A DNA stretch of 64,000 nt from a virus: positions 129,829 through 193,828 of the IMG/VR virus record IMGVR_UViG_3300047445_000186. One strand, written 5' to 3'. The notes below the pieces were generated by a model. The model saw nothing but the letters and a program-made list of their open reading frames with translations. It had not been told where the DNA came from and did no database searches. Position numbers and translations under genes: made by a program. Positions 4,343-38,244 of the stretch are shown here, piece by piece; the first letter of the stretch is position 1; each line of letters opens with the position of its first letter.

Positions 4343-4374
4343 GACCTGATCCTTCGTTGAAGTGGCCAAAGGGT

Positions 4375-4415
4375 GGCTAACACTTAGAATTGCAAGTGTT
4401 AGCCATTTTAATTTC
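4375..4415 (+). terminator. rho-independent terminator (11-bp stem GGCTAACACTT / AAGTGTTAGCC, then ATTTTAATTTC)
   Basis: Seen directly after the gene ending at 4342. Confidence 0.7.
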
Positions 4416-4429: not shown

Positions 4430-5086
4430 ATGATTTTGTTTGGTTTGGGGCTCCTCGAGCTCGCGTTTCTGGGTGTGTTCTTTCTGCTCCTGATCATTGG
4501 TGCAGCACTGGACCGTCGCGGTGAATCTTCACCGAAGTGGTGGGTCACTGGTATCGGTGGTGTCGTGATCGCTGCATACTTCTGGAAGGACTTCACGCTC
4601 GCCACCCTCTGGGCTGACGTTCAAACGTTCGCATTCTGGAAGCCATTCGCGCTGTACCTGATCGCTGGTGTTCTGTACTCCGTGGTCGAATTCGCGCTGA
4701 ACGTGAAGCGTGCTCGTACATTCCTCGGTGATGCATGGAGTTCGGCTCTGAAGAGCGCCGAATCGAAGCTGAAGGTCGATGAGTTGACGGACGCAGAAGC
4801 AACTGGTCGGAAGCAGGCATTCGTTGCACGCTTCCTGGGCGACAATCGTCGTGCTCACGAGATCGTTGCAGTCACGTCGAACGATGGTCTGACGATCGAA
4901 CCAGTCGTGAACAAGAAGGTCCTCGCTGATCACATCTCTGCATGGACCCTGTTCTGGCCGTTCTACCTGATCGCACTGGTCGTTGGTGATCTGTTCGTCG
5001 AGATCTTCAACCTGATCGCTGAACTGTTCCACTCGCTGTCGGCACGGATCGTGAAGCTCTCGTTCGGAAATCTGTTCAAGTTCTGA
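4430..5086 (+). CDS. integral membrane protein (218 aa, multiple TM helices)
   Basis: Hydrophobic segments (ILFGLGLLELAFLGVFFLLLIIGAAL, LYLIAGVLYSVVEF, WTLFWPFYLIALVVGDLF). RBS AAAGGA upstream. Confidence 0.6.
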   Translation: MILFGLGLLELAFLGVFFLLLIIGAALDRRGESSPKWWVTGIGGVVIAAYFWKDFTLATLWADVQTFAFWKPFALYLIAGVLYSVVEFALNVKRARTFLGDAWSSALKSAESKLKVDELTDAEATGRKQAFVARFLGDNRRAHEIVAVTSNDGLTIEPVVNKKVLADHISAWTLFWPFYLIALVVGDLFVEIFNLIAELFHSLSARIVKLSFGNLFKF

Positions 5087-15334: not shown

Positions 15335-15390
15335 TTCGTAACGGTTACACACCGTTACCCAGGATTACGACTTTGGTGGTATGATTTCAT

Positions 15391-17078: not shown

Positions 17079-17966
17079 ATGATGTACTCATCAAAGTTTG
17101 CCGTCGCCATCAAGAACGCCGGCAAGATTCTCCGCGAAACGTCGAACTCAGATGCTTTCTCGGTCGCTCTCCCATTCGGTGCAGAGTATCAAATCCACCT
17201 GAAGAACATGAACTCGGTTCGAGCCTTGGTGAAGGTCGAAATCGATGGCGTTGACGCAACTGGCGGAACGCGACTGATCGTGCCTGCAAATGGCGTGATT
17301 GACCTCGAGCGTTTCATCAAAGAGAACGATACGAACATCGGCAATCGGTTCAAGTTCATCGAGCGCTCTGCGAAGATCGAGAACGGTCCTCGCGGAATTC
17401 GCGTCGAAGACGGCCTGGTCCGAGTCGAGTTCGAATTTGAACGTGAACCTACGCCAATCAACGACCATCAGATCCGTCACCAGCTCCTAACAGACACGTA
17501 CTTCACGAAACATCTGGGCGGTTCGCTGAGCGGCCATGGGTACACGACCACGAATGCGATCGGCGACACCTGGCTGAACGGAGGGCCTCGCGGTCAGATC
17601 ACCTATAGTGCTAACAGCGCTTCGGCATCCGGTGTCTCCGGCGTCGCCTCTGGGGCTCTGGGCAGTACTACGCATACCTTCACGCCATCTTCTGTGAAAC
17701 AGGCGGCTTTCTCGGCACAAGTAAATGACGTCGGGATCACGGTTCCTGGCTCGATCTCTGAACAGAAGTTCGTCCAAGGCGCGTGGTTCCCAACTGACGG
17801 CGTGAAACACGTAATGGTGCTTAAGATCGTTGGCGAACTTCAGGGTAAGCTCGTCGAGGTCCCCGTTACCGTGAAGGCCAAACCAACATGCGTAACATGC
17901 GGCACGGTTAACAAAGGCAATGCTAAGTTCTGTCGCGAATGCGGCACAGCACTGACTGTCGTATAA
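17079..17966 (+). CDS. hypothetical protein with C-terminal zinc-ribbon (CxxC...CxxC)
   Basis: Terminal CVTCGTVNKGNAKFCRECGTAL zinc ribbon. Confidence 0.5.
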   Translation: MMYSSKFAVAIKNAGKILRETSNSDAFSVALPFGAEYQIHLKNMNSVRALVKVEIDGVDATGGTRLIVPANGVIDLERFIKENDTNIGNRFKFIERSAKIENGPRGIRVEDGLVRVEFEFEREPTPINDHQIRHQLLTDTYFTKHLGGSLSGHGYTTTNAIGDTWLNGGPRGQITYSANSASASGVSGVASGALGSTTHTFTPSSVKQAAFSAQVNDVGITVPGSISEQKFVQGAWFPTDGVKHVMVLKIVGELQGKLVEVPVTVKAKPTCVTCGTVNKGNAKFCRECGTALTVV

Positions 17967-18050
17967 AAAGGCGGCGCCGTACAAAACACCGATAAACCGC
18001 CCGAAATCGGCGTGGAGCTGGAACCACGTACGGCGCCGCATAAAACCACC

Positions 18051-18515
18051 TTAGCGAGCATCACCTTCAGTCGAGTAGTCCGCTGAGTACTCCGGAAAGT
18101 CGGTCGGCTTTAGAACTCGCTTGTGCAGAGCTAGGGTGAAAGCCCATAGCTCTGATTTGATTCCTCGTATCGAACTGCAGTCCTCTGAGTAGATTCCAAT
18201 TGGTGTCTCAGAAAATCTGCATGGCACACCATTGTCGTCATAGTAAACGGCGCGAATGTCTCTCCACGATTCTCCATCTTCAGTGAACTCCATTATCCGG
18301 TAGTTCCAATGTCTCAAGGCAACTTTATCGTCCTCGATAGGAAGCTCATTACGGTTTGCCGGCCGTGCAGATCGACGGCGCGGTGAAGCAGGCGATCCGC
18401 CCTTTGGTACCCGTGGTTCGTTAGCTGGTCGAAGTCGACGCACAGGTCGATCTTTTCCTGATTCGTCATCTTTGTCCATTGTGCCTGTCCATAAGTCTTG
18501 CGTATCTTGAGCCAC
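18051..18515 (-). CDS. hypothetical protein (154 aa)
   Basis: Part of a three-gene minus-strand block. Confidence 0.4.
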   Translation of the reverse strand: MAQDTQDLWTGTMDKDDESGKDRPVRRLRPANEPRVPKGGSPASPRRRSARPANRNELPIEDDKVALRHWNYRIMEFTEDGESWRDIRAVYYDDNGVPCRFSETPIGIYSEDCSSIRGIKSELWAFTLALHKRVLKPTDFPEYSADYSTEGDAR

Positions 18516-18570
18516 ACATGCGCGATTGGCATGTGCAACTCAAGTGCAAAACTCTCGTCTAGTTCATCAT

Positions 18571-18987
18571 TCACGCTGCTTTGACGCGGAATTCTTCCTT
18601 GTCATGGCCAGCTTGAACAGCTTCCCGCAGCCAGCGTGGCGTACTCCCTCCACCCGACCACTTGTTCCCATTCTCGTCCGAGTACTTCACCGCCTTCGGA
18701 ACTCCAGCGAGAGGTCCACGGTGAACCTTCTCCTTCCTCGACTTGCTGTGCACTGCTTGAGCGCGCTTTGACACGACCTTCTTCGCGGGTTTCTGCTTCG
18801 CGACTGCCTTGACCTTCTTGAGCGACACACCATCTGCAGCGTACAGATCGGCCGCGGTGATGCTGTACACGGCGATTGCTTCGCGAATGCGCTTGATCAC
18901 GCCATCAGCTTCGCGCTGACGCATTGCGTTCGCTTTGTCTTGGAGCGCAGCTATTTGCGCCATCAATGCTTCGTACGATCTTGCCAT
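18571..18987 (-). CDS. H-NS family nucleoid-associated protein
   Basis: C-terminal KYSDENGNKWSGGGSTPRWLREAV matches the H-NS DNA-binding motif (Y..ENGE.KTWTGQGRTP..I). N-terminal coiled-coil. Confidence 0.85.
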   Translation of the reverse strand: MARSYEALMAQIAALQDKANAMRQREADGVIKRIREAIAVYSITAADLYAADGVSLKKVKAVAKQKPAKKVVSKRAQAVHSKSRKEKVHRGPLAGVPKAVKYSDENGNKWSGGGSTPRWLREAVQAGHDKEEFRVKAA

Positions 18988-18997
18988 TCTTTGCTCC

Positions 18998-19360
18998 TCA
19001 GATTTGCTTCAACCATTCACGGATTTTCTGGCCGTCAGATTCGACGTTCGCCAGAATGCGGCCGATCAAGGCCTTGTCGCGCTCATTGAACGTGACACAG
19101 TTAACCTTCAGAGCATGCAGCAAATTCGCGCAGTACCCCTCAGTGATGTACAGAGCCCACGCAAGTTCGCGTTGTCTGAGTTGTTCAAATGATTTGGCTG
19201 GGTGATTCTGCTTGGCTCCAAGTCCGTTCAGATAGTTCGTCAAGACTCTGGCAGGCGGCTTTGGCGTCTTATTCCGCTCTCGTACTATTGACTCGAAGTC
19301 GATGATTTTGGCGGTACGTGGCTTCATTGCGGGCCGTCTTTTCGGTGCAGCTGCTGGCAT
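18998..19360 (-). CDS. hypothetical protein (120 aa), first gene of minus-strand H-NS operon
   Basis: ORF. An AT-rich divergent promoter region with a palindrome lies upstream. Confidence 0.45.
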   Translation of the reverse strand: MPAAAPKRRPAMKPRTAKIIDFESIVRERNKTPKPPARVLTNYLNGLGAKQNHPAKSFEQLRQRELAWALYITEGYCANLLHALKVNCVTFNERDKALIGRILANVESDGQKIREWLKQI

Positions 19361-19394
19361 GTATCCTCCTAGAGGTTGGGCGATTTAATAAAAA

Positions 19395-19413
19395 GTGTCC
19401 TGAATTAGGACAC
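19395..19413. promoter_or_regulatory. perfect 7-5-7 palindrome GTGTCCTgaattAGGACAC in AT-rich divergent intergenic region
   Basis: Seen directly. Located between the minus-strand operon (18998-19360) and the + strand gene at 19501. Flanked by AATAAAAA and TTTTAATT. Confidence 0.45.
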
Positions 19414-19500
19414 GTGTTCATTTTAATTCGTGAACCTGAGTCCGACTCCTTGTTACCTTCGTTACGAAGTGGAACAATTAAATAGACCGGAGGTCATGAT

Positions 19501-20046
19501 ATGAAATACTGGTCGCGCGTGCATTTGCCGAATTACGAAGAAGGTGCAGCGAAAATTATGGAGTGGGTCGAGCAGCGGAGATACACCAAGAACGGACACT
19601 TCTGGAACCACGTTGGAGCGACAGTGCTAAGGGCGCTCGCTCCTGGACTGTTCGAAGATTTGAAGCCATATGGTGTCGTCACGTACGCAGCAATTCTCGT
19701 CTCCCCTCCAGGCCTGATGAACATTCACATCGATGACGAAGCAACGAATCTCGGTGTTCAAGCTCGTATTCAGATTCCACTGAAGAACACTGCTGGTACC
19801 GAGACCCGTTTTTACTCAATTGAGCACGCAGTTCCTATCAAGACTCCAACCACGAATGGTCTGCACTTCTGGCGGTACGATGAGGAGCAGTGCGAGCAAG
19901 TTGACATGGTCAGCGTGACTGAGCCGACCATTCTCCGAATCAGCGCGCCGCACGCAGTTTACGTGCCGCCAAATGCGCCGAAGCGATACGCCTTGACTCT
20001 CCGCCTTACCAATGATCCAGTGAGATACCTAGATGAGCACTCCTAA
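19501..20046 (+). CDS. cupin-fold (2OG-Fe oxygenase-like) protein, paralog of 22125 and 62223(-)
   Basis: Shares the core ...PPG...HIDDE...QARIQIPL... with the paralogs (HVDGEK / HLDSGE). Confidence 0.5.
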   Translation: MKYWSRVHLPNYEEGAAKIMEWVEQRRYTKNGHFWNHVGATVLRALAPGLFEDLKPYGVVTYAAILVSPPGLMNIHIDDEATNLGVQARIQIPLKNTAGTETRFYSIEHAVPIKTPTTNGLHFWRYDEEQCEQVDMVSVTEPTILRISAPHAVYVPPNAPKRYALTLRLTNDPVRYLDEHS

Positions 20047-20656
20047 AAACATTTCAAGCCTGTTCAAAATCGAATGGGACAAAGTTATCAGTCAAGTTCA
20101 AGAAATCTCGAAGCTCGAGAAGGTTAGTTTCACTGGTGGTGGATGGGGAGGCTGGAGCCTGACGTCAAACACCGGGAAGTTCGCCGATGGTTGGGAAGCC
20201 GGTCAGCTCGCGTTCAAGCGCGACGAGGACGGGAACATCTACAAGGATGAAGAGCTTGCCAAGAAGCTTGGCGTTCAAAAGCACGGTGCCCATAACAAAT
20301 ACACCGAGATCGCCACGCCAGAGTTGATGTCGTGCGTTCAGCAGGTTGCGAAGTACGGTCTCAGACCTGATCGTGCCAGAATTACGCAGCTCTCTCCGAC
20401 TCAACACGCGCAATGGCACACAGATGGAACGCCGGAGATCGACACATTCCGCGTGCACTTCGTATTTGAGACGAACCCCGAGGCGTTCTTCTATACTCAG
20501 GCCGGAACATTCCATCTTGAAGCACGGCAAGTGTACATGGTGAAGGTGAATGATCTGCACAAGGTCGAGAACCTTGGTGAGACAAAGCGAACCCATCTGA
20601 TCATGGACATCTTCGCTCCACGGGCAAAGTACTTCTACTATGTTGCCGCCCTATAA
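20033..20656 (+). CDS. Asp/Asn beta-hydroxylase-like 2OG-Fe(II) oxygenase
   Basis: QWHTDGTPE...FRVHFVFET...HLIMDIF pattern resembles PF05118-type hydroxylases (LpxO/OlsC relatives). Confidence 0.45.
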   Translation: MSTPKNISSLFKIEWDKVISQVQEISKLEKVSFTGGGWGGWSLTSNTGKFADGWEAGQLAFKRDEDGNIYKDEELAKKLGVQKHGAHNKYTEIATPELMSCVQQVAKYGLRPDRARITQLSPTQHAQWHTDGTPEIDTFRVHFVFETNPEAFFYTQAGTFHLEARQVYMVKVNDLHKVENLGETKRTHLIMDIFAPRAKYFYYVAAL

Positions 20657-21227
20657 GTCACTCGACTTCAAGTTGTTGTCTGATGAGGCGATCAAGAAGA
20701 TCGCTGATTTTGTTCTGGCAAAGCCTGAAGTAATCCAATCACACGTGTCTACCGTGACTGGTAAGTACGATGGGATCAGCTATCCGAAGCCACAAGCATT
20801 GACGGCGATCTTGGGGCTGATCAGAGCCGAGTACAAGATCATCCGTGAATCTTGCACGCTGCCATTCGAACCGTCTCTGATTTACTGCAAGCCAGGCACT
20901 GTCGTTCAGCGCCATGCCGACGGAAAGAAGTCAACTCGGATGTGCACGATCATTACGCCGATCCATCCATTGACTGAGTACGCGCCAACAATGTTCTGGC
21001 AGAGCTGGAACGCGAGATCACCACGCGCGGTGCTTACGATTGATAAGCTCCCTGCACTCGTGAACATCCAAGAGCTGCACAGTCTGACGAACGGCTCTGA
21101 GCCTCGATTCAACTTCCAACTCGGCTTTGGCGAACCGTACGAGGTCGTTCTTGACTTACTTCAGCGGGGTGAGTTGTTCAAGAAGCTCGGTGAACGTGCA
21201 AGTCCACTTGTCTCTGAACTGAATTGA
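20640..21227 (+). CDS. hypothetical protein (195 aa)
   Basis: ORF overlapping the upstream gene by 17 nt. Confidence 0.45.
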   Translation: MLPPYKSLDFKLLSDEAIKKIADFVLAKPEVIQSHVSTVTGKYDGISYPKPQALTAILGLIRAEYKIIRESCTLPFEPSLIYCKPGTVVQRHADGKKSTRMCTIITPIHPLTEYAPTMFWQSWNARSPRAVLTIDKLPALVNIQELHSLTNGSEPRFNFQLGFGEPYEVVLDLLQRGELFKKLGERASPLVSELN

Positions 21228-22088
21228 TCGAGCCTCAAGCAGGGGCGTGTGATTCCGATGGTACAGAACTGGAACCATCTCAGCACCAGTGAACTTCATT
21301 CGATTGGCAAGCTCAGGCCAATACTTCTTGTACACTTTGTACTTCACGTACCTTGAGTTCTCGAAGATTTTCGTGGCGATCTTGTCTTCACCCATAGCGA
21401 GTCGTTCAATTAATGGCTCGCGCATCATCGACAGAACAATCTCAGGCGTGTGCTCAAAGAATCCGAGTCCACCGAGAATACCTTCGGAGATTGCATATCG
21501 ATACCAAGCGAGAATGTGCTCGAGCTGAACGTACTTCCATTCAGTGCCGAACTTCTCGAGGTACATGTCACCGTTCCCCATCACTGGCAGACCGTTCCAC
21601 TCGTTCCAAATCACATTCATGAGCTTCATGTGTGGAACCATGCCGAACGTATCAGCCTGAGATTGAGTGAACATCGTCCGAGCTTCATTCGTCACGATCC
21701 AATTCTCGATCGTGATCATGTAGTACTCGGGATTCAGATTCATGCTCTTGCAGAACTGTTCAACATACGCGATCTCATGAACGTTCTTGTCTTGCGTGAA
21801 TCTGAACGTGGCGATCTTGAACGGCACGTCGGCCTCAATGAACGCCTTCACGACTACTTCGCTGTCCATGCCGCCACTGAGCATCACAACTGGAATCCGA
21901 CCGAGGCTCTTTGCCTGTTCGCTCAGGAGCTTTGCAACGTTCACGCACTCTTCACGGAATGTACCAGGTTCGCGAGTGCAACGAGAGAACGAACATTGCA
22001 AGGTGTTCTCAGCGATCTTATCGTTCGGGTTGAACAGCCCGCCCTCGTATCCGAACTGAACGTGATCATCAAGTGTAAAGGGTAGCAT
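21156..22088 (-). CDS. PP-loop ATP pyrophosphatase (asparagine synthetase-like / adenine-nucleotide alpha-hydrolase)
   Basis: SGGMDS PP-loop motif (VVMLSGGMDSEVV) about 70 aa from the N-terminus. Confidence 0.6.
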   Translation of the reverse strand: MLPFTLDDHVQFGYEGGLFNPNDKIAENTLQCSFSRCTREPGTFREECVNVAKLLSEQAKSLGRIPVVMLSGGMDSEVVVKAFIEADVPFKIATFRFTQDKNVHEIAYVEQFCKSMNLNPEYYMITIENWIVTNEARTMFTQSQADTFGMVPHMKLMNVIWNEWNGLPVMGNGDMYLEKFGTEWKYVQLEHILAWYRYAISEGILGGLGFFEHTPEIVLSMMREPLIERLAMGEDKIATKIFENSRYVKYKVYKKYWPELANRMKFTGAEMVPVLYHRNHTPLLEARSIQFRDKWTCTFTELLEQLTPLK

Positions 22089-22124
22089 TTTGGAATCGGT
22101 AAATACTCGAGCAAATATTTAGAA

Positions 22125-22691
22125 GTGCCCTCGATGTCAAAGTACTCCAAGAATCTCGTGATCCCTTTCGAACTCGATCTGTTCCCTTCAGTGAAGGCTT
22201 CAGGTGAAGGAGCGCCACTGGACAAGCTTGGTCACTTCAAGTACGACAAGAGCTCGCTGCCGCAAGAGCTGATTGAGTTCATGCGCGAGCGTGATCTACA
22301 ACCAGGACATTGTGAGGTGTTCTACACTCCGCCTGGCGCGTCACTGCCGATTCACGTTGATGGCGAGAAGCTCTCTAATTTGGCGAAGATCAATTGGTGC
22401 TACGGCGGACCAGGGAGCATGATGACTTGGTACAAGCTTCTCGTGCCTGAATCAGAGGTTGAACAGAAGCAAACTGGTCTTGAGACCAGCTATCTGATTC
22501 CGTCGTTCAAGCAGTGCCGAATGATTCACTCTGCGAAGATCGGGTTGCCTACTCTCGTGAACGTTGGAGTGCCGCATGCCGTGATCAATCCTTCACGTGT
22601 CGGACGATGGGTGCTTAGCGTAGTGCCGTACGACCTGCAATTAGGCAGCAATCTGTCATTCGACGTTGCTCTGGAGCGGCTCAGCCGATAA
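22125..22691 (+). CDS. cupin-fold oxygenase-like protein (paralog family)
   Basis: CEVFYTPPGASLPIHVDGEK...NLAKINWCYGGPGSMMTWYKL is closely similar to the 62223..62798(-) product. Confidence 0.5.
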   Translation: MPSMSKYSKNLVIPFELDLFPSVKASGEGAPLDKLGHFKYDKSSLPQELIEFMRERDLQPGHCEVFYTPPGASLPIHVDGEKLSNLAKINWCYGGPGSMMTWYKLLVPESEVEQKQTGLETSYLIPSFKQCRMIHSAKIGLPTLVNVGVPHAVINPSRVGRWVLSVVPYDLQLGSNLSFDVALERLSR

Positions 22692-23436
22692 ACTCTGGGA
22701 GCGCTTTCTTACTGAGGTGTGCGAGATTACCGTACTTCTGAACAGAGCGCTCGAGCAGATCTTCGCACTTCTCCAAATTCATCGTGGCTCGAGTGAAGAT
22801 CATCAAGATCTTGATGTGATCGTCGTGATAGGAACTGCCATGCTTTGCTCGCACGTTGTTCCAACCGAATACGTTCGTGTCTGTCCGCGCCAGTGGCAGA
22901 ATTGGATTTGAATTGCTCGCACCAGGAACGCATTGGCGAATGAACAACGTCTCTCTTGGGTTGTTGTCGTACAGCATGATTCGGAAGCTGGACGGCATGT
23001 CTTCCCATGGAGACTGATCACGATGAAGACCAACTGGTCGTTCACTTGACCATAGCGAGAACTCAGGCTCTCCATCAAATGGAAGCGCCTTGATGCCTTC
23101 TGCAATCTCAGGGAATTCAGTCAGAACATCGTGCTTGTTCTGCTCCCAGATATCGTCAAGCTGATTCGGAGAGTTCACACTCAAGAACGTTCGGTCTGCT
23201 TTGTACGCATCACCCGCAACGTCAGCTCGGACCTTGTTCACGGTTTTTGCGCGCTCAAGGAACCACGACAAGAACAGCTCAGGATCGTTCGGCTTGATTG
23301 ATGGAATATCAAGCGGAAGGTACATGTACTTCCCGTACTTGTGCTCAAGAAGACCGAGCTTGATCCGCTGGCCCTTGTACCTCTTGTCGAGATACGCGTT
23401 CCGCCATTCAATGATGTTCTGTCGTTCAGTGCTCAT
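22681..23436 (-). CDS. hypothetical protein (251 aa), possibly cupin/dioxygenase-like
   Basis: ORF on the minus strand. Contains GLHRDQSP and HGSSYHDDH His-rich motifs. Confidence 0.4.
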   Translation of the reverse strand: MSTERQNIIEWRNAYLDKRYKGQRIKLGLLEHKYGKYMYLPLDIPSIKPNDPELFLSWFLERAKTVNKVRADVAGDAYKADRTFLSVNSPNQLDDIWEQNKHDVLTEFPEIAEGIKALPFDGEPEFSLWSSERPVGLHRDQSPWEDMPSSFRIMLYDNNPRETLFIRQCVPGASNSNPILPLARTDTNVFGWNNVRAKHGSSYHDDHIKILMIFTRATMNLEKCEDLLERSVQKYGNLAHLSKKALPEFIG

Positions 23437-23472
23437 GGGTTATTTAGCCTAGCCGCGCCCCGTAAATATCAG

Positions 23473-24060
23473 ATGAAAGCACGCCAAACTACCATTGCAG
23501 ATCGTCCCCAGATTGAAGCGATCGTGAAGTCTAACCCGAAGATGTACGGAGCTGACATCACTCGGTATCACAGCATCACGATCCATCGATTCGTTGGGCA
23601 CGTGGTTGGCGATCTGGCGAAGACTGCATGGTGTGTCGAAGACGACGAGGGTCAGATCGTCGGACTGGCGATTCAGTTCTGGTGGACCTCAATGCCGGCC
23701 TGGTCGATTGCCTCTCTGTTCTTCAAGAATGAACCTGGCAAGAATCAGTTCAACGCGCACAAGATTGGCGCCGTCCTGGTGAATGCGATGTGCAAAGAAG
23801 CCGAATCCCGAAAGATGTACGACTTCTACTACGTAGTAAGAGATAATGAATCTCTTCGTAAGAACATGAGCTTGAGCGTGAACGACGAATTCACGGAGAG
23901 GTACGAGATCAACGATCTGTTCCTGCTGCATCCGTACACTTCGCCGATCTACCCGATGTTCAAGAACATGCTCGGACACGTAATTGGGCGGAACCGCAAA
24001 CCAGTGGTTTTCCGCCTTGCATCGCTTAAGAGCAAATATAGGCCGTCTGTATGGGTGTGA
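23473..24060 (+). CDS. hypothetical protein (about 195 aa)
   Basis: ATG 23473. The listed ORF start 23341 would overlap the convergent gene. Confidence 0.45.
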   Translation: MKARQTTIADRPQIEAIVKSNPKMYGADITRYHSITIHRFVGHVVGDLAKTAWCVEDDEGQIVGLAIQFWWTSMPAWSIASLFFKNEPGKNQFNAHKIGAVLVNAMCKEAESRKMYDFYYVVRDNESLRKNMSLSVNDEFTERYEINDLFLLHPYTSPIYPMFKNMLGHVIGRNRKPVVFRLASLKSKYRPSVWV

Positions 24061-25505
24061 ACGTTCTGATCTTCACTTGCGTCTCTGGACGATTGTTCCA
24101 GCGCGCGATTGGAGCGTACCAGGTTGCTGGGTTTCTGCGGCAGCATGGGTACTCAGTGCAGGTCGTTGACTTCACAGACAACTTCACTGAACAGGAATTG
24201 AAGAAGGCCGTCGATCTTTACGTCGACGAGACAACCCTCGCTGTCGGCGTTTCAACCACGTTCTACAGTCATCTCGAAAACAAGTTCATCGCCGCGAAGA
24301 AGACCTTCGACGCGATCATTCCACAGGAACTTGAGAACGCGATCGTGTACTCGAAGGAGAAATTCCCGAAAGTAAAGATCGTTTTCGGTGGTTCGCGATC
24401 ACTGGCAGGCGAGGCAATGCCTTGGGTTGACATGGTCATTCACGGGTACGGTGAAGACAAGTTCCTGACGTACTTGGATGGTCTGTCTGGGCGCGCACCA
24501 AAGATCTTCTCGATCGGCAAGCCCTTGCGCGTGATCATGGACGATCCGCCGAAGAAGCGATTCGACATCCAAGAGCTGAGCCATCAGTTCGCGCCACAGG
24601 ACTTCGTTCTACCTGGTGAAACGCTCCCGATTGAAATCAGCCGTGGCTGTATCTTCAAGTGCAAGTTCTGCGCGTACCCGCTGAATGGCAAGAAGAAGAT
24701 GGACTTCCTTCGTTCCGCTCAGTGCGTTCAGGAAGAGCTGTTGCACAACTACGAGAAGTACGGAACCACGTCGTACTTTATCGGCGACGACACGTTCAAC
24801 GACAGCACATTCAAGCTAGAGGCATTGCACAAGGTAATCACCGAGCTGCCGTTCAAGCCGAAGTTCACGTGCTATCTGCGACTCGATCTGCTGTACGCTC
24901 ATCGCGAACAGATCCAGCTCCTCGATGAGATGGGTCTTGCTTCACCGTTCTTTGGGATCGAATCGCTGAATCAAAAGTCAGCCACCTCGATCGGCAAGGG
25001 CATGAAGACTGGCAAGGTCAAGGATTTCCTACTCGAGCTCTATCACGATCACTGGCGCGGAGAGAAGCCATTCACGTGCTCGTTCATTGTCGGTCTGCCG
25101 CATGAGACCCGTGAAACCGTTCAAGAGACATTTGAGTGGGTGAAGAAGACTGAACTGAGCTCGACGTTCTTTCCGCTGAGCATCTCAATCAAGTCGTTCT
25201 ACCAGTCCGAGTTCAATCGGAACTACAAGGATTACGGGTACGATCTGAAGGATCCAGAGACCGGGTACTGGGAGAGTGAGAATTTCACGCTCGATTCGGC
25301 CACTGAGATTGCCGAGCAGTTCAACAAAGAGCTGATGTACACGAACGATCGGCCGAGCTCTTGGTTCCTGATGACGATGCTGAATCACGGGATGACCCTT
25401 GAAGAGGCACGAAAGGTCTTGGTGAAGGACCTGCCTTGGCCGAAGATTCTGCGGACAAAGCGGGACAAGGTCGCCGAGTACAAAAAGCTTGTTCTGCAGA
25501 GCTAA
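24051..25505 (+). CDS. B12-binding radical SAM enzyme (class B)
   Basis: N-terminal Rossmann-like cobalamin-binding region, then EISRGCIFKCKFCAY (CxxxCxxC 4Fe-4S/SAM motif). Confidence 0.85.
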   Translation: MGVNVLIFTCVSGRLFQRAIGAYQVAGFLRQHGYSVQVVDFTDNFTEQELKKAVDLYVDETTLAVGVSTTFYSHLENKFIAAKKTFDAIIPQELENAIVYSKEKFPKVKIVFGGSRSLAGEAMPWVDMVIHGYGEDKFLTYLDGLSGRAPKIFSIGKPLRVIMDDPPKKRFDIQELSHQFAPQDFVLPGETLPIEISRGCIFKCKFCAYPLNGKKKMDFLRSAQCVQEELLHNYEKYGTTSYFIGDDTFNDSTFKLEALHKVITELPFKPKFTCYLRLDLLYAHREQIQLLDEMGLASPFFGIESLNQKSATSIGKGMKTGKVKDFLLELYHDHWRGEKPFTCSFIVGLPHETRETVQETFEWVKKTELSSTFFPLSISIKSFYQSEFNRNYKDYGYDLKDPETGYWESENFTLDSATEIAEQFNKELMYTNDRPSSWFLMTMLNHGMTLEEARKVLVKDLPWPKILRTKRDKVAEYKKLVLQS

Positions 25506-25530
25506 ATATCCGGTTAAACTTGGAAGACTC

Positions 25531-25839
25531 ATGCACAAAGTTACCTACAAATACACGCATCCGACAGATGCCACTGGCCTGATCTCGATGACGACAGAGG
25601 AACTCGCGTACCGCGACACGTTCCTGACATGGGCGTATCAGAACGGCCTCGTTGCAACAGAGACCAGCATTGTCGACACAAAGACGATCATGCACGAAGT
25701 TCTGTGGAGCAACAAGATCGCGTTCGACGCTTTCCGTGGTCACTTCGGTCAAGAGTACCACACGTTCGTTGATAACATCCTCGCTCAAGTTGAAGCGAAG
25801 GGTGGCTCGCACGAACTGATCGAAGCTGACATCGCCTAA
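25531..25839 (+). CDS. hypothetical protein (about 102 aa)
   Basis: ATG 25531 after GGAAGA. ORF continues to TAA 25839. Confidence 0.4.
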   Translation: MHKVTYKYTHPTDATGLISMTTEELAYRDTFLTWAYQNGLVATETSIVDTKTIMHEVLWSNKIAFDAFRGHFGQEYHTFVDNILAQVEAKGGSHELIEADIA

Positions 25840-26546
25840 TGCTGTCACTGGATGAAGCTCAACGGGCGCTGATTCTCAAGAAGCTTGCGCCCCTAGGACG
25901 TGTACCTCGGTACGATGCGGAGGCGCAGACCGTCACGCTCTCCGAGACATCAGCACGTCGCTTCATCATTGATGGGACCGCGTGCACCCAGCGGCCGCGT
26001 TCAATCGCGCTCCAGGACCCAAAGGCGTACGATCCGTCTTATCTCGGATTTGGTATTCACGAAGCCCTCAGTGTTCTGATCCAAGACGACTACGCACTGT
26101 ACGCGACTCTGTTCGACACCGTCAGACAGATCGATTCGACAGCAAGCACAATGTTCGGTTCATGCGAGCAGGCGGCGTTGATTCTGTCGCATAATTCATT
26201 CGGTGAAGAGCTGTTCCCGCATGTTCATGCCAGATCGATGATGGACACGCAGACTCTGTCGCTGTTCGTGAATTTGACTGGGACTGACTCAGCAACCCTG
26301 ACGCTATTCGATCCGGTCACTGAAGACTCACGAGTGTTCAAGAACGGATACACCGATCATCGCGTTGTTGCGGTGCACGCTCGGAAAGCCGATCAGCGTG
26401 AAATCAAGATCGAACACGGGTCATTCATCCTGTTCGACGCTGCGAAGACACCACACAAGTTCTCGTACAGCGACGACATCTGGCTCACGTTCGTGTACGA
26501 TCACGTCAATGGAGTCAGAGAAGATGTTCGCGCCAACTCCCTTTAA
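25839..26546 (+). CDS. hypothetical protein (235 aa)
   Basis: TAATG overlap with the upstream gene. Confidence 0.45.
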   Translation: MLSLDEAQRALILKKLAPLGRVPRYDAEAQTVTLSETSARRFIIDGTACTQRPRSIALQDPKAYDPSYLGFGIHEALSVLIQDDYALYATLFDTVRQIDSTASTMFGSCEQAALILSHNSFGEELFPHVHARSMMDTQTLSLFVNLTGTDSATLTLFDPVTEDSRVFKNGYTDHRVVAVHARKADQREIKIEHGSFILFDAAKTPHKFSYSDDIWLTFVYDHVNGVREDVRANSL

Positions 26547-27279
26547 GATCCTTTTCGTTCAGCTCCTGGCATGGATCGGTATTCCGGTCCTGCTTTGGTA
26601 TGGTTCATGGGTGCACATCATCGGCGCCCTGCTGATGTACACACTGTACGGTGGTGCTGGAGTTTCACTGACGTTCCATCGGATCCTGTCGCACGCTGCG
26701 TTCAAGTTGAATCCAATTGTGCGGAAGATCATGATCACGCTTGCGAGCTTCGCGAACGTCGGATCACCAATCACCTGGGTTGCCGTACATCGAGCGCACC
26801 ATCGGTTCGTTGACACTGAACGCGATCCGCATTCACCACATCACATGCCGTTCTGGTACATGATGTTCGGCACGATGTACTCACAAGTCTCGGTGAAGTT
26901 CACTGTCGATCTGCTTCGTGATCCATTCTGTAGGTTCATCCATAAATACTACTTCGCAGTTCAGCTTCCATGGATCGTTCTGCTGTTCTTGCTTGGCGGG
27001 TGGAAAGCCGTTCTTGCGTTCCATCTCGTTCCAGGCGGAATGACATGGCTTGGCGGATCGCTCGTGAACTACTTGAATCATCTACATGGGTACAAACCAT
27101 TCGACGGTCAGGGAACTAGCACGAACAATCTGATCACTGGATTCTTGGTGTTCGGAGAAGGTTGGCACAACATGCATCACGCGAAGCCGACCACACCGAC
27201 TACGAAGCTGAATTGGTGGGAGTTCGATTTGGTTTACCAGATCGGCAGACTGATTGGAACACCAAGGGGCAAGAGATGA
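26524..27279 (+). CDS. membrane fatty-acid (acyl-lipid) desaturase
   Basis: Three His boxes (HRILSH, HRAHHRF, HNMHHA) and TM helices. RBS GGAG 9 nt upstream of ATG 26524. Confidence 0.85.
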   Translation: MFAPTPFKILFVQLLAWIGIPVLLWYGSWVHIIGALLMYTLYGGAGVSLTFHRILSHAAFKLNPIVRKIMITLASFANVGSPITWVAVHRAHHRFVDTERDPHSPHHMPFWYMMFGTMYSQVSVKFTVDLLRDPFCRFIHKYYFAVQLPWIVLLFLLGGWKAVLAFHLVPGGMTWLGGSLVNYLNHLHGYKPFDGQGTSTNNLITGFLVFGEGWHNMHHAKPTTPTTKLNWWEFDLVYQIGRLIGTPRGKR

Positions 27280-27890
27280 TTTACTCAGTCGAGAACTGGG
27301 AGCTTGTTCAGCGTTTACGGGCTGACAAGCAGGCGTTGATGGATGAGTACACTGGCGCAGCGAACAGAACGCTGAACAAAGTGAACGCACTCACGAAGTC
27401 GAACAAGATGCTGTTCGATAAGCCGATGAGCGTGCTTCCATACATCTGGGATACTAGGCTCTGGACGGCCGATGAAAAGATTGGTGCAAAGATCGACACA
27501 GTTGGTCTGCTTCAACCGCCGAACCCATTGCCAGTGGGGAACACGATCGTACAAGACTTCCCGTGCATTCGGCAATTCTTCTGGGCTTCACTGCTTCCAG
27601 GTGGAAAGATCAATCCGCACGTTGGCGTGAACGGCATTCTGTACAAGCGAATCCCTGATCATTACCGCATTCAAATCTGCTGGTTCCCAGGAACGGGCGC
27701 TGCATTTCACGTTCAAGATCGATTCATCGAGTACAAGGAAGATGCGTGCTTCGGCTTCGAAGACGGTAATGAGCTTCACTGGGTCGAGCATCATGGCGAT
27801 CAAATCAGAACCACTCTCATTCTTGATGTGTGGCGTGATCAAGTACCTGCGCTGCGCGCACCTCATCCAGATGCTGTTCTCAAAAGTTGA
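27276..27890 (+). CDS. Asp/Asn beta-hydroxylase-family (LpxO/OlsC-like) 2OG-Fe(II) oxygenase
   Basis: ATGA coupling to the desaturase. KINPHVGVNGILYKRIPDHY...FHVQDR...HWVEHHGD conserved-His pattern of PF05118. Confidence 0.55.
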   Translation: MIYSVENWELVQRLRADKQALMDEYTGAANRTLNKVNALTKSNKMLFDKPMSVLPYIWDTRLWTADEKIGAKIDTVGLLQPPNPLPVGNTIVQDFPCIRQFFWASLLPGGKINPHVGVNGILYKRIPDHYRIQICWFPGTGAAFHVQDRFIEYKEDACFGFEDGNELHWVEHHGDQIRTTLILDVWRDQVPALRAPHPDAVLKS

Positions 27891-28377
27891 TCTGGACATC
27901 TCGTTCACGAAGCAGGCACGTCGTGGAAAGTACGTGCTTAGCTACGGGCCGATCCATTACTACACCGTTCTCGGTAATCCATTCCCGTTCAAACTGATCA
28001 AGGCCTGGAAGCCGGACCTTGTGCGTTGGGTTGAGATCACTGGCACGCAACCAGCTGGTCCGCATCGTGATCATGGGATTACGACCACGTTGAATTGCTA
28101 CATGGATGCTCCGTCTGGCGAGACGAAATTCTGGCGTGAAGGCGCGAACAGTGCTCCATTCCGTGTAAAGGGCGCCGTGACATCGAACGGGTACGTGCAA
28201 AGCACACTGGATTTTGTTGATTCATTCAAGGCGTTCACGGGTGACGCGTACCTGCTGAACGTGTCTGAAATCCACTCGGTTGAGAAGGAAATCGACGTCA
28301 ATCGGCGGTTCATCCAGCTCTCTTGGAACACCGTACCGTTCGACCAGGTTCTGAAGCTCGTTCAAACGCCGTTGTAG
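27871..28377 (+). CDS. hypothetical protein, possibly cupin-like (about 168 aa)
   Basis: ORF overlapping the upstream end. PHRDHG motif. Confidence 0.4.
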   Translation: MLFSKVDLDISFTKQARRGKYVLSYGPIHYYTVLGNPFPFKLIKAWKPDLVRWVEITGTQPAGPHRDHGITTTLNCYMDAPSGETKFWREGANSAPFRVKGAVTSNGYVQSTLDFVDSFKAFTGDAYLLNVSEIHSVEKEIDVNRRFIQLSWNTVPFDQVLKLVQTPL

Positions 28378-37871: not shown

Positions 37872-37971
37872 GCCTCTCGATTCGAGAGGCGTTATTTCAA
37901 AACGTGCAGATAGGATTCCGAGGAAAGCTGAAGGCCAGGATTCGGAGGAAGCAGTACGTTTTGAAATAACG
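37872..37971. promoter_or_regulatory. 19-nt perfect palindrome (GCCTCTCGATTCGAGAGGC), then a 14-nt inverted repeat (GTTATTTCAAAACG ... CGTTTTGAAATAAC) ending at the 5' end of the first tRNA
   Basis: Seen directly. Likely a transcription or processing signal for the tRNA array. Confidence 0.4.
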
Positions 37972-38046
37972 GGTCGTTGACAGAGCGGCAGATGTACCTC
38001 CCTCTTAAGGAGATCTAGCAGGGTTCGACTCCCTGGCGACCCACCA
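37971..38046 (+). tRNA. tRNA-Lys(CTT)
   Basis: Manual fold: acceptor GGGTCGT / GCGACCC, T-loop GGTTCGACTCC, anticodon loop CTCTTAA, CCA encoded. Confidence 0.6.
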
Positions 38047-38051
38047 AACAT

Positions 38052-38162: not shown

Positions 38163-38168
38163 AACAAT

Positions 38169-38244
38169 GGGACTTTCGTATAGCTGGTGCGTACGGGAGC
38201 TTGAAAACCTTCAGGAAGCGGTTCGATTCCGCTAGGTCCCACCA
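38169..38244 (+). tRNA. tRNA-Phe(GAA)
   Basis: Acceptor GGGACTT / AGGTCCC, anticodon loop TTGAAAA, T-loop GGTTCGATTCC, CCA. Confidence 0.55.

What the first reader, a model, noticed from the sequence alone, without database searches (positions are those of the whole stretch)
18051..19413. Reverse-oriented H-NS module with palindromic operator
This block is one of the few minus-strand blocks in a + strand genome segment. It has three genes, and the middle one encodes a bona fide H-NS (C-terminal KYSDENGNKWSGGGSTPRWL). The AT-rich divergent region upstream has a perfect GTGTCCT-n5-AGGACAC palindrome. A virus-encoded H-NS could silence host AT-rich islands (including defence loci) or regulate the element's own lipid island, which starts at the divergent promoter.
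Basis: partly seen in the sequence, partly recalled or inferred. Interest (0 to 1): 0.55.

Follow-up and report, generated by a model that had tools for sequence, protein, structure and literature searches.

The report
Phage H-NS lacking its DNA-gripping arginines
A giant soil phage carries a conserved four-gene operon with a copy of the bacterial gene-silencing protein H-NS that keeps its self-assembly domain but has lost the basic residues that normally grip DNA, so it more likely interferes with the host's silencer than acts as a silencer itself.

Summary
The observation largely holds. A minus-strand operon lies at 18051-19360. Its second gene (18571-18987) has an H-NS C-terminal domain, and a perfect GTGTCCT-n5-AGGACAC palindrome sits at 19395-19413 in an unusually AT-rich spacer.

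Corrections:
- The block has four genes, not three. The 154-aa ORF is a mis-call for an 86-aa gene plus an 88-aa gene.
- Minus-strand genes are not rare in the window.
- The neighbouring "lipid island" is not a conserved neighbour.

New findings:
- This H-NS belongs to a clade seen only in phage or metagenome contigs. Its minor-groove loop is W-[S/A]-G-G-G-[S/N/L], with no basic residue, where H-NS has QGR and its bacterial relatives carry Arg or Lys.
- The N-terminal oligomerisation helix is close to that of Burkholderiales H-NS proteins.
- In 13 of 14 relatives with readable upstream context, the gene directly follows an uncharacterised helical-hairpin protein (the 120-aa product here).
- The palindrome is conserved as a base-paired stem: compensatory changes, only G·T mismatches on the sense strand, loop of 5-8 nt. 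This fits a 5' mRNA stem-loop better than a DNA operator.

Best reading (inferred): an antagonist or modulator of host H-NS-type silencing. New variant of a known kind; moderate interest.

The parts
19452..19465 (-). Direct repeat GTAAC-N4-GTAAC, 25-27 nt upstream of the -10-like hexamer. Possibly a regulator or promoter-recognition site.
   Evidence: It is the only such site of this kind in the 64-kb window. The second match, at 15344, is part of an unrelated hairpin. The repeat is conserved at the same relative position in L008, L009, L010 and L017, and in degenerate form in L014 and L015.
19420..19425 (-). -10-like hexamer TAAAAT (TAnAAT in relatives), 6 nt upstream of the stem. Inferred promoter element.
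   Evidence: TTAnAAT is invariant in the alignment of five upstream regions. The consensus scan finds no full sigma-70-type promoter here, so the promoter assignment is an inference.
19395..19413 (-). The palindrome GTGTCCT-AATTC-AGGACAC (minus-strand reading). Most likely a 5'-terminal stem-loop of the operon mRNA. The alternative is a DNA operator.
   Evidence: A stem sits at the same place (-53 to -23 from the ATG) in six different upstream regions. Across 40 pair cells there are 34 Watson-Crick pairs, 6 G·T pairs and 0 other mismatches on the sense strand. Compensatory changes occur at stem positions 3, 4, 6 and 7. The loop is 5-8 nt. None of 265 arm swaps between sequences does as well.
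19365..19370 (-). Shine-Dalgarno sequence AGGAGG, 4 nt before the ATG of the first gene.
   Evidence: Read directly from the sequence. AAGGAG is conserved in relatives.
18998..19360 (-). Gene 1: 120-aa partner protein. It has a basic disordered N-terminus and a conserved two-helix hairpin (motif RQRELAWALYITEGYCANLLHALKVNCVTF). The family is uncharacterised.
   Evidence: Homologues at 59-74% identity. A profile search finds 93 representative clusters. There are no Pfam, PHROG or PDB matches. AlphaFold2 gives helices 58-86 and 93-119 with block-mean pLDDT of 86-96, and residues 1-56 at low confidence. Foldseek finds nothing below E = 0.4. The gene lies directly upstream of the H-NS gene in 13 of 14 relatives with readable context.
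18571..18987 (-). Gene 2: 138-aa H-NS-family protein. It has an N-terminal coiled coil (about residues 5-50), a Lys/Arg-rich linker, and a C-terminal H-NS-type domain (about 98-136) whose loop is W-S-G-G-G-S-T-P in place of Q/RGR.
   Evidence: Pfam PF00816 at 5.2e-10. The best solved relative is the Ler C-terminal domain 2lev at 7.4e-8. The AlphaFold2 model's top four Foldseek hits are the C-terminal domains of Ler, H-NS, Bv3F and H-NS again.
18314..18574 (-). Gene 3: 86-aa conserved protein of unknown function. Its GTG start overlaps the H-NS stop codon (GTGA).
   Evidence: Gene calls on identical contigs. Homologues in L008, L009 and L010 at 40-46% identity with 21 invariant columns. No family match below E = 0.01.
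18051..18317 (-). Gene 4: 88-aa protein (phrog_21321, unknown function). Its TTG start overlaps the gene 3 stop codon (TTGA).
   Evidence: phrog_21321 at 3.6e-7. The WNYR[VI] codons upstream of the annotated ATG are conserved, with synonymous differences, in L009 and L010. The L012 homologue starts MKHWNYRV.
17971..18039 (-). Terminator-like structure between the operon and the convergent zinc-ribbon gene. A 12-bp G+C-rich stem (GCGGCGCCGTAC / GTACGGCGCCGC) is followed on the minus strand by CTTTTTATA.
   Evidence: Read from the sequence. The scan finds a minus-strand terminator-like site at 17991-17972.

Best explanation
The locus is a conserved phage operon of four tightly packed genes: partner protein, H-NS-like protein, and two small proteins.

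SHOWN
- Gene 2 has an H-NS-type fold.
- Its N-terminal coiled coil closely resembles that of Burkholderiales H-NS proteins.
- Its minor-groove loop has lost every basic residue (GGG-S).
- In all but one relative with readable context, it is adjacent to, and apparently translationally coupled with, an uncharacterised helical-hairpin protein.
- The palindrome is conserved as a base-paired stem with strand-specific G·T pairs.

INFERRED
- The H-NS-like protein, probably together with its partner, co-assembles with the host's H-NS-type xenogeneic silencer. It thereby weakens or re-programmes silencing filaments. This would be a full-length, 'declawed' version of the H-NST dominant-negative strategy.
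- That would protect a 54% G+C phage genome in a host that probably has 66-71% G+C.
- The 5' stem-loop stabilises the mRNA or serves as a post-transcriptional control site.
For: - Family and fold: Pfam PF00816. The AlphaFold2 C-terminal domain matches the Ler, H-NS and Bv3F domains.
- Loop: H-NS TGQGR and Ler SGVGR align to SGGGS. W-x-G-G-G is invariant in 10 aligned relatives. All 21 single-domain GGG-type clusters lack Arg in the loop (one, P0032, has a Lys). The two-domain relatives, including those named Variovorax, carry G[RMF]G[PK][RK]P.
- Bacterial genomes: a scan of 185,579 bacterial and archaeal genomes for the GGG loop pattern found no relative carrying it. It found only Arg/Lys-loop proteins in Rubrivivax, Rhizobacter and Pelomonas, in loci of 66-71% G+C with no partner gene upstream.
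- Literature: changing QGR or RGR to AGA almost abolishes DNA binding (PMC8476142, citing Gordon et al. 2011). H-NST, which has only the N-terminal domain, antagonises H-NS, most likely through heterodimers (PMC7074111).
- N-terminus: residues 1-50 are 41-47% identical to Variovorax H-NS proteins, about the same as to other phage-clade members. The core GVIKRIREAI...Y.(L/I)TAADL is shared with the Rubrivivax and Rhizobacter proteins.
- Gene pairing.
- Operon packing: 10 nt between genes 1 and 2, then 4-nt overlaps at GTGA and TTGA.
- Stem covariation.
Against: - No experiment supports any step of the mechanism.
- MvaT binds DNA with an Arg-less KG-GN loop, using an upstream Arg and a lysine network (PMC8476142). 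The linker here is Lys/Arg-rich and most relatives keep an R-P-x-K-Y motif like that of H-NS, so DNA binding may persist.
- The C-terminal domain is under clear purifying selection. A pure decoy would not need it, so the domain must bind something.
- The host is inferred only from the nearest bacterial homologues.
- One close H-NS homologue (P0002, L007) lacks the partner gene upstream.
- Distant partner-family members occur without an H-NS gene (L016, L021).
- The covariation evidence rests on six sequences, and I chose the pairing register.
- In L019 the -10-like hexamer overlaps the stem, so the stem may not be transcribed there.
Confidence: 0.4

Rival explanations
1. The protein is a working DNA-binding xenogeneic silencer. 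It coats AT-rich DNA and represses host loci such as defence islands, or the phage's own genes, as proposed for the H-NS of phage EPV1.
For: - It has the full-length architecture: an oligomerisation helix, a basic linker, and an H-NS-type C-terminal domain under purifying selection.
- MvaT shows that an Arg-less loop can still bind AT-rich DNA (PMC8476142).
- The EPV1 precedent is described in PMC3097231.
- The operon's own upstream spacer is among the most AT-rich 0.5% of the window.
Against: - The Q/RGR motif that enters the minor groove is replaced by GGG-S/N/L throughout the clade.
- QGR-to-AGA mutants almost lose DNA binding (PMC8476142).
- The bacterial relatives keep basic loop residues and only the phage clade lost them. 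This points to a change of function rather than drift.
Confidence: 0.25
2. The palindrome is a DNA operator. A dimeric regulator binds it at or near the transcription start and autoregulates the operon. The regulator could be the 120-aa protein, the 86-aa protein, or the H-NS-like protein.
For: - A palindrome at a constant position just downstream of a conserved TAnAAT is a classic operator location.
- The half-sites keep a recognisable consensus, GTG(Y)CC / GG(R)CAC.
- Symmetric changes in both half-sites would also be expected if a dimer's specificity co-evolved with its site.
Against: - The spacing between arms varies from 5 to 8 nt, which moves the half-sites by up to 3 bp.
- All six imperfect pairs are G·T on the sense strand. 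They would be C·A on the other strand, and an asymmetry of this kind only matters for a single-stranded fold.
- The 120-aa protein has no recognisable DNA-binding domain.
Confidence: 0.3
3. The pair is a phage-chromatin module acting on the phage's own DNA, analogous to Hha plus H-NS. The partner's basic tail would supply the DNA contacts that the H-NS loop lacks. The complex would organise or time the expression of the phage genome rather than target the host silencer.
For: - The two genes are almost always adjacent and coupled.
- The partner has a Lys/Arg/Pro-rich disordered N-terminus.
- A distant partner-family member sits next to a ParB-like gene, another DNA-organising protein.
Against: - The partner has no similarity to Hha/YmoA or to any known family.
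- The long basic tail is missing from many family members of only 70-80 aa.
- There are no data on complex formation.
Confidence: 0.2
4. The C-terminal domain has been re-purposed to bind RNA, in the manner of the StpA RNA chaperone. The 5' stem-loop would be its autoregulatory target.
For: - There is a conserved 5' stem with RNA-type covariation directly upstream of the operon.
- The C-terminal domain is conserved although it has lost the DNA minor-groove residues.
- From general knowledge, not tested here: H-NS and StpA are known to bind RNA.
Against: This is purely circumstantial. No RNA-binding motif was identified and there is no Rfam match to the leader.
Confidence: 0.1

Closest known systems
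H-NS / Bv3F family xenogeneic silencers (Pfam PF00816), especially those of Burkholderiales (Variovorax, Rubrivivax, Rhizobacter, Pelomonas)
   Same: - The N-terminal coiled coil is 41-47% identical over residues 1-50 and shares the GVIKRIREAI core.
- There is a basic linker.
- The C-terminal fold keeps the conserved Y, D, G, W, G, G, P, W, L, G and F positions.
   Different: - The loop that enters the minor groove is GGG-S/N/L instead of QGR, RGR or G[RMF]G[PK][RK]P.
- The nearest Variovorax-type relatives have two tandem C-terminal domains and are 160-215 aa long. The phage proteins have one domain and are 112-144 aa.
- The phage gene is paired with a partner gene that is absent from the bacterial loci.
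Ler (LEE-encoded regulator), an H-NS-family anti-silencer; C-terminal domain/DNA complex PDB 2lev
   Same: It is the best solved-structure match, by sequence at E = 7.4e-8 and by Foldseek. It shares ...W-S-G-x-G-x-x-P-R-W-L-x-E-A. Ler is itself a mobile-element H-NS relative that counteracts silencing.
   Different: - Ler keeps the loop Arg (VGR) that aligns to Ser here. From my own knowledge of Cordeiro et al. 2011, not checked here, this is R90, which contacts the minor groove.
- According to PMC7074111, Ler resembles H-NS only in its C-terminal domain and displaces H-NS by binding DNA. Here the N-terminus is H-NS-like and the DNA-contact residue is missing.
H-NST (truncated H-NS antagonist of EPEC/UPEC genomic islands)
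   Same: This is the proposed working principle. An H-NS-like oligomerisation domain without a competent H-NS DNA-binding motif forms mixed oligomers and relieves silencing (PMC7074111, PMC3897749).
   Different: H-NST lacks the C-terminal domain altogether. Here the domain is retained and conserved, and only its basic loop residues are lost. The antagonism is inferred, not shown.
EPV1 phage H-NS (Skennerton et al. 2011, PMC3097231)
   Same: It is a phage-encoded, full-length H-NS homologue related to betaproteobacterial H-NS, known from metagenomes and without experimental data.
   Different: The EPV1 authors argued for increased repression because both domains are present (PMC3097231). I did not compare the EPV1 sequence itself, so its loop is untested here. 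No partner gene has been described for it.
Phage anti-H-NS proteins unrelated to H-NS: T7 gp5.5, and the LUZ24 phage protein of PMC8501957 that acts on MvaT (Mip, by my recollection)
   Same: These are phage early proteins that neutralise H-NS-family silencers, which is the same proposed biological goal (PMC8501957).
   Different: They are not H-NS homologues and work by binding the silencer as foreign inhibitors. Here the candidate inhibitor is a derived copy of the silencer itself.
MvaT (Pseudomonas H-NS-family silencer)
   Same: Its loop lacks the canonical Arg (KG-GN). One relative of the phage protein has GGG-N.
   Different: MvaT compensates with an upstream Arg (R80) and a lysine network, and it does bind AT-rich DNA (PMC8476142). 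Whether the phage proteins have an equivalent arrangement is unknown.

Membership tests
H-NS family (PF00816) | The C-terminal H-NS domain is detectable by the family profile above the curated threshold. | tested here: met
   39.4 bits against a cut-off of 25.6, E = 5.2e-10, residues 100-135 covering the whole 38-position model.
H-NS family (PF00816) | The C-terminal domain adopts the H-NS/Ler/Bv3F fold. | tested here: met
   In the AlphaFold2 model, residues 101-130 have block-mean pLDDT of 92-95. The top four Foldseek PDB hits are 2lev (Ler), 2l93 (H-NS), 2l92 (Bv3F) and 1hnr (H-NS), with target-normalised TM-scores of 0.45-0.65. This is a prediction, not a solved structure.
H-NS family (PF00816) | There is an N-terminal coiled-coil dimerisation/oligomerisation domain. 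| tested here: inconclusive
   Predicted helices 5-41 and 45-50 have block-mean pLDDT of 77-97 over residues 1-50. The region is 41-47% identical to the N-termini of bacterial H-NS-family proteins. Actual oligomerisation cannot be tested with these tools.
H-NS family (PF00816) | The loop carries the Q/RGR AT-hook-like motif that inserts into the DNA minor groove. | tested here: not met
   TGQGR of H-NS and SGVGR of Ler align to SGGGS. The GGG-[S/N/L/Y] loop is present in all 21 clade members listed.
H-NS family (PF00816) | The protein preferentially binds AT-rich DNA and silences transcription. | not testable with these tools
   This needs EMSA, ChIP or reporter assays.
Ler-type anti-silencer | DNA binding through the loop Arg, with displacement of H-NS by competitive DNA binding. 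| tested here: not met
   The Arg of Ler's VGR loop aligns to Ser115 here.
H-NST-type dominant-negative antagonist | The protein consists of the H-NS oligomerisation domain only, with no C-terminal DNA-binding domain. | tested here: not met
   A complete and conserved C-terminal domain is present. The resemblance is in the proposed mechanism only.
Hha/YmoA family (considered for the 120-aa partner) | Sequence or fold membership in the Hha family of H-NS co-regulators. | tested here: not met
   No Pfam hit for the protein or for any of 60 family members. There is no PDB sequence hit below E = 0.6 and no Foldseek hit below E = 0.4. Only the genetic linkage to an H-NS gene is analogous.
Palindromic operator of a dimeric repressor | The spacing between half-sites is fixed across orthologous sites. 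| tested here: not met
   The arms are separated by 5, 6, 6, 7, 8 and 7 nt in the window, L008, L009, L010, L017 and L019.
Structured RNA stem-loop | Base pairing is maintained by compensatory changes, with G·U pairs tolerated on the transcribed strand only. | tested here: met
   34 Watson-Crick pairs, 6 G·T pairs and 0 other mismatches on the sense strand, with 6 C·A mismatches on the antisense strand. Double changes occur at 4 of 7 stem positions. None of 265 arm swaps equals this. Caveats: there are only six sequences, and transcription of the stem has not been shown.
Intrinsic terminator (considered for the palindrome) | A stem followed by a U-run, conserved in relatives. | tested here: not met
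   The window has TTTTTATT after the stem. L008, L009, L010 and L017 have no T-run there.

The most novel reading that the evidence does not exclude
The partner protein and the 'declawed' H-NS form a dedicated two-component anti-silencing system of large soil phages. The H-NS copy uses its host-like coiled coil to enter host H-NS filaments. Its Arg-less C-terminal domain and the bound partner then cap or disable those filaments. This would keep a comparatively AT-rich jumbo-phage genome transcribable in a high-G+C Burkholderiales host. It would be the first case of a virus countering xenogeneic silencing with a modified full-length copy of the silencer plus a co-factor.
Probability: 0.25. Interest if true: 0.65.

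Novelty: new variant of a known kind. Interest (0 to 1): 0.5.

Why it matters
Xenogeneic silencing by H-NS-family proteins is a general barrier to AT-rich foreign DNA. Known phage counter-measures, such as T7 gp5.5 and the LUZ24 protein of PMC8501957, are proteins unrelated to H-NS.

Phage-encoded full-length H-NS copies have been assumed to add repression (PMC3097231). No experimental evidence for that had been reported as of the 2020 review PMC7074111.

This clade gives a concrete and testable alternative:
- The basic loop residues are lost in every one of the 21 GGG-clade clusters listed (none has Arg; one has a Lys).
- The host-like oligomerisation helix is retained.
- A previously undescribed partner protein is almost always linked to it.

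If the antagonist reading is right, 'H-NS' annotations in phage genomes cannot simply be read as silencers. The GGG loop would then be a simple sequence marker separating the two classes. If the protein still binds DNA, it would define a new DNA-recognition mode for the H-NS fold.

Tried and rejected
- DNA (megablast) and tblastn searches of the locus and of the H-NS protein against 50,697 GenBank phage records found nothing. Scans of IMG/VR viral contigs with the H-NS protein, the partner protein and the partner alignment also found no relatives. All comparative data therefore come from metagenome contigs.
- The six contigs carrying the identical H-NS protein (L001-L006) are 99.4-100% identical to the window and were useless for covariation or codon analysis.
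- I suspected from the sequence pattern that the 120-aa protein was a LuxR/GerE-type or sigma region-4-type helix-turn-helix. AlphaFold2 instead gives two long helices, and there is no Pfam, PDB or Foldseek support. Rejected.
- I asked whether the GTAAC repeat or the TTAAAATG element is a general phage promoter that recurs in the window. It is not. The other GTAAC-N-GTAAC match (15344) and the other TTAnAAT matches (4383/4411) lie inside unrelated hairpins that look like terminators.
- Rfam found no known RNA family in 17900-19600 at E <= 1.
- An outer helix (GACTT / AAGTC) flanking the -10-like box and the stem appeared in some RNAfold outputs. It is not consistent across sequences and would need a transcription start further upstream. 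Not pursued.
- A programmed -1 frameshift joining genes 3 and 4 was considered, because gene 4 lies in the -1 frame in all three loci examined. No slippery heptamer is present, and a TTG or GTG start (ATG in L012) explains the data. L009 remains unexplained.
Its fold is therefore unknown.
Full report
**1. What is at the coordinates**

The window is 53.8% G+C and densely coding on both strands. Between 18051 and 19360 all coding is on the minus strand.
- The ORF 18998-19360 (120 aa) starts 4 nt after an AGGAGG.
- Ten nucleotides after its stop codon, the ORF 18571-18987 (138 aa) begins.
- That second ORF matches the Pfam H-NS C-terminal domain (PF00816) at E = 5.2e-10, 39.4 bits against a cut-off of 25.6.
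- The perfect inverted repeat GTGTCCT-n5-AGGACAC lies at 19395-19413.
- The 140-nt spacer to the divergent gene at 19501 has 41.4% G+C, within the lowest 0.5% of 140-nt windows.

These parts of the observation are correct.

**2. Corrections to the gene structure**

Divergent relatives settle the question.
- The 86-aa ORF 18314-18574 has clear homologues in L008, L009 and L010, at 40-46% identity with 21 invariant columns. It is a real gene. It overlaps the N-terminal half of the 154-aa ORF in another frame.
- The last gene is homologous to 78-106-aa proteins in L009, L010 and L012, and to phrog_21321 at 3.6e-7.
- Its conserved N-terminal WNYR[V/I] codons lie upstream of the ATG that gene callers chose. 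They differ between loci mainly at third codon positions.
- The L012 homologue begins MKHWNYRV. The best start in the window is therefore the TTG at 18317, giving 88 aa.

The operon has four genes: a 10-nt gap between genes 1 and 2, then two 4-nt start/stop overlaps (GTGA and TTGA). A 12-bp G+C-rich stem followed by a T-run (17971-18039) separates it from the convergent zinc-ribbon gene 17079-17966.

Minus-strand genes are not rare in the window, and two more lie within 4 kb (21156-22088 and 22681-23436).

**3. The element is a large phage**

- The identical H-NS protein occurs on a 331,776-bp contig.
- The window carries 20 tRNA genes, 19 of them in an array at 37971-40496 and one more at 43783.
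- It also carries a tRNA nucleotidyltransferase, an RNA ligase and a NinI-like phosphatase.
- It has a PrkA/YeaG-type kinase about 52-55% identical to those of Enterobacter phage LAU1, 634-642 kb uncultured phages and Ralstonia jumbo phage RsoM2USA.
- No cultured phage record or IMG/VR contig contains the locus.

**4. The H-NS-like protein**

AlphaFold2 with a 29-sequence alignment predicts three regions:
- a long helix (5-41) plus a short helix (45-50), with block-mean pLDDT of 77-97;
- a low-confidence Lys/Arg-rich linker;
- a compact C-terminal domain, with pLDDT of 92-95 over residues 101-130.

The only meaningful Foldseek hits in the PDB are the C-terminal domains of Ler (2lev), Salmonella H-NS (2l93), Bv3F (2l92) and E. 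coli H-NS (1hnr). By sequence the best solved relative is Ler, at E = 7.4e-8. Membership of the H-NS superfamily is therefore secure.

The residue-level alignments show the key difference. H-NS T-W-T-G-Q-G-R-T-P and Ler T-W-S-G-V-G-R-Q-P correspond to K-W-S-G-G-G-S-T-P here.

That result is what the alignment shows.

**5. The loss is a conserved clade character, not an accident**

- Ten relatives at roughly 40-60% identity all have W-[S/A/K]-G-G-G (invariant W110, G112, G113, G114).
- I tabulated the loops of the 121 proteins collected from the two H-NS searches. All 21 single-domain proteins of this type (112-144 aa) have GGG-[S/N/L/Y] with no Arg.
- The remaining hits are mostly 160-215 aa with two tandem C-terminal domains. 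Those with source names are from Variovorax. Their loops are G[RMF]G[PK][RK]P.
- A pattern scan of one genome from each of 185,579 bacterial and archaeal species found no GGG-loop relative. It found only Arg/Lys-loop proteins in Rubrivivax, Rhizobacter and Pelomonas, in loci of 66-71% G+C.
- The N-terminal 50 residues are as similar to Variovorax proteins (41-47%) as to other phage-clade members (about 50%). The core ...GVIKRIREAI..Y.(L/I)TAADL... is shared with the Rubrivivax and Rhizobacter proteins.

In short, the phage clade kept a host-like assembly domain and the C-terminal fold, and specifically lost the basic loop residues.

**6. The partner gene**

The 120-aa protein has homologues at 59-74% identity. 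A related gene lies immediately upstream of the GGG-type H-NS gene, separated by 0-13 nt or overlapping it, in these loci:
- with DNA in hand: L008, L009, L010/L011, L012, L013/L014, L015, L017/L018, L019 (a 96-kb contig) and L020 (a 35-kb contig that also carries a terminase and a gp32 gene);
- from gene tables only: three further contigs.

There are exceptions in both directions. L007 has the H-NS gene without the partner. L016 and L021 have distant partner-family genes without an H-NS gene, and in L021 the partner-family gene follows a ParB-like gene.

A profile search of 1.84 billion representative proteins finds 93 clusters, mostly 70-105 aa. They share the motif RQRELxWxLYITEGYxANLxHAxxVN. 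None of 60 members matches Pfam, and only one has a marginal PHROG hit at E = 0.0055. The profile has no PDB relative.

AlphaFold2 predicts a low-confidence basic N-terminus and two long helices, 58-86 and 93-119, with block-mean pLDDT of 86-96. There is no significant structural neighbour. I therefore find no support for a helix-turn-helix regulator. Strict adjacency suggests that the partner forms a complex with the H-NS-like protein. That is an inference.

**7. The palindrome**

On its own it is not remarkable. The window has 65 perfect 7-bp inverted repeats with 3-8 nt loops, against about 30 expected.

The upstream regions of the partner gene in L008, L009, L010 and L017 share one architecture:
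- a GTAAC-N4(6)-GTAAC direct repeat;
- 25-27 nt of spacer;
- TTAnAAT;
- about 6 nt;
- a stem-loop;
- AAAGTCGCAAGGAG, which includes the Shine-Dalgarno sequence;
- the ATG.

L019 has a similar stem.

Across the six different sequences the stem has 34 Watson-Crick pairs, 6 G·T pairs and no other mismatch. Double (compensatory) changes occur at stem positions 3, 4, 6 and 7. None of 265 swaps of 3' arms between sequences does as well.

On the opposite strand the six G·T pairs become C·A mismatches, and an equivalent stem survives there only where the pairing is perfect. The loop varies from 5 to 8 nt.

G·T pairs confined to one strand and variable arm spacing are what one expects of an RNA stem-loop at or near the 5' end of the operon mRNA. 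They are not expected of a fixed-geometry operator for a dimeric protein.

The caveats are real:
- There are only six sequences.
- I chose the pairing register.
- No sigma-70-type promoter passes the consensus scan.
- In L019 the -10-like hexamer overlaps the stem.

I put the RNA reading at about 0.6 and the operator reading at about 0.3. The T-run after the stem in the window is not conserved, so a leader terminator is unlikely to be the shared function.

**8. Context claims**

The divergent neighbour does contain genes consistent with lipid or other modification chemistry: two Asp/Arg beta-hydroxylase-like proteins, a B12-binding radical-SAM enzyme and a fatty-acid desaturase.

In relatives, however, the gene upstream of the operon is a divergent RNA ligase gene (L008, L010/L011) or same-strand genes (L009 and the P0008 contig). 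The convergent zinc-ribbon gene downstream is conserved.

There is no comparative support for co-regulation of the operon with the 'lipid island'.

**9. Most likely mechanism and rivals**

Shown:
- a conserved phage operon;
- H-NS family membership by profile and predicted fold;
- a host-like N-terminal helix;
- a loop without basic residues;
- the partner linkage;
- covariation in the stem.

Inferred: the protein enters host H-NS-type oligomers through its coiled coil and, lacking the minor-groove 'claw', weakens or re-directs silencing. In principle this is what H-NST does with an N-terminal domain alone (PMC7074111, PMC3897749). The likely hosts have 66-71% G+C, judged only from the bacterial loci that hold the nearest homologues. 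A 54% G+C phage genome would be a natural target for their silencers, which gives the phage a motive.

Against this reading:
- The C-terminal domain is conserved and so must bind something.
- MvaT shows that an Arg-less loop can still bind DNA (PMC8476142).
- The linker is strongly basic.

The rivals are a working silencer (0.25), a phage-chromatin pair acting on phage DNA (0.2) and an RNA-binding role (0.1). My confidence in the antagonist or modulator reading is 0.4.

**10. Novelty and score**

Phage-encoded H-NS has been known since EPV1 (PMC3097231), and mobile-element H-NS paralogues are well reviewed (PMC7074111). The bare presence of an H-NS gene in a phage is therefore not new.

Three things appear not to be described in the papers I could search:
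- a phage-specific clade with an invariant Arg-less GGG loop;
- its near-obligate pairing with an uncharacterised helical-hairpin protein;
- the conserved leader stem.

I rate this a new variant of a known kind, with interest 0.5. It gives a clear and cheaply testable hypothesis in the field of xenogeneic silencing and phage counter-defence. It is not a new category of system, and its function remains inferred.

Noticed in passing
window 18294-18317 (minus strand); L009 3340-3372; L010 2790-2819: The codons for WNYR[V/I], just upstream of the ATG that gene callers use for gene 4, are conserved with synonymous differences. The true start is therefore upstream: TTG in the window, overlapping the gene 3 TGA, and GTG in L010. 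In L009 no canonical start codon lies between the gene 3 stop and these codons, which is unexplained. Gene 4 is in the -1 frame relative to gene 3 in all three loci.
   Followed up: partly
window 19452-19465 (minus strand): The direct repeat GTAAC-N4-GTAAC is conserved 25-27 nt upstream of the -10-like box in all close relatives, and in degenerate form (GTAAC-N4-GTAG[A/G]C) in L014 and L015. It occurs nowhere else in the window in this context. It may be the binding site of a locus-specific regulator or a promoter-recognition element.
   Followed up: partly
window 37971-40496 and 43783-43859: There are 20 tRNA genes on the plus strand, 19 of them in an array at 37971-40496. The array includes duplicated Glu, Ile, Asn, Lys and Thr genes and two Arg genes, and the third Arg gene stands alone at 43783. 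One predicted tRNA-Asn is unusually long at 95 nt (38834-38928). Many ORFs listed mechanically on the minus strand in this region are spurious.
   Followed up: no
window 19501-28377: A cluster of possible modification enzymes: two Asp/Arg beta-hydroxylase-like proteins (one at 20033-20656, a second further downstream seen in the gene calls of the identical contig L001), a PP-loop/QueC-like ATPase (21156-22088, minus strand, weak match), a B12-binding radical-SAM enzyme (24051-25505) and a fatty-acid desaturase (26365-27279). The substrate could equally be a peptide or a nucleic acid.
   Followed up: partly
proteins P0030, P0033-P0130: The nearest bacterial relatives of the phage protein, including those named Variovorax, have two tandem H-NS C-terminal domains after a single coiled coil. 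Their loops differ between the two domains, typically GRGPRP in one and GMGPKP or GFGPRP in the other. In these loops the position of H-NS Arg114 is Pro or Lys.
   Followed up: no
L021 3821-5220 and L022: A distant member of the partner family (P0021, 102 aa) is not followed by an H-NS gene. It lies directly after a 342-aa ParB-like gene. This hints that the partner family may associate with different DNA-organising proteins.
   Followed up: no
L009 2710-3054; P0008 contig 4504-4851: In two relatives a SnoaL_2-domain gene (114-115 aa) is inserted between the H-NS gene and the gene 3 homologue. In L008 the gene 4 homologue is absent. Only the partner/H-NS pair is the stable core of the operon.
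   Followed up: no
window 55541-57499: A PrkA/YeaG-type serine kinase (652 aa) is 52-55% identical to proteins of Enterobacter phage LAU1, 634-642 kb uncultured phages and Ralstonia jumbo phage RsoM2USA. It is more distantly related (about 27%) to the 'serine kinase' of Thermus phages.
   Followed up: no
window 4366-4410 and 15338-15362: Two strong intergenic hairpins follow plus-strand genes. One is TGGCTAACACTT-n8-AAGTGTTAGCCA followed by a T-run. The other is GTAACGGT-n5-ACCGTTAC. They are probably intrinsic terminators. They produced false matches to the motif searches made for the H-NS operon leader.
   Followed up: yes
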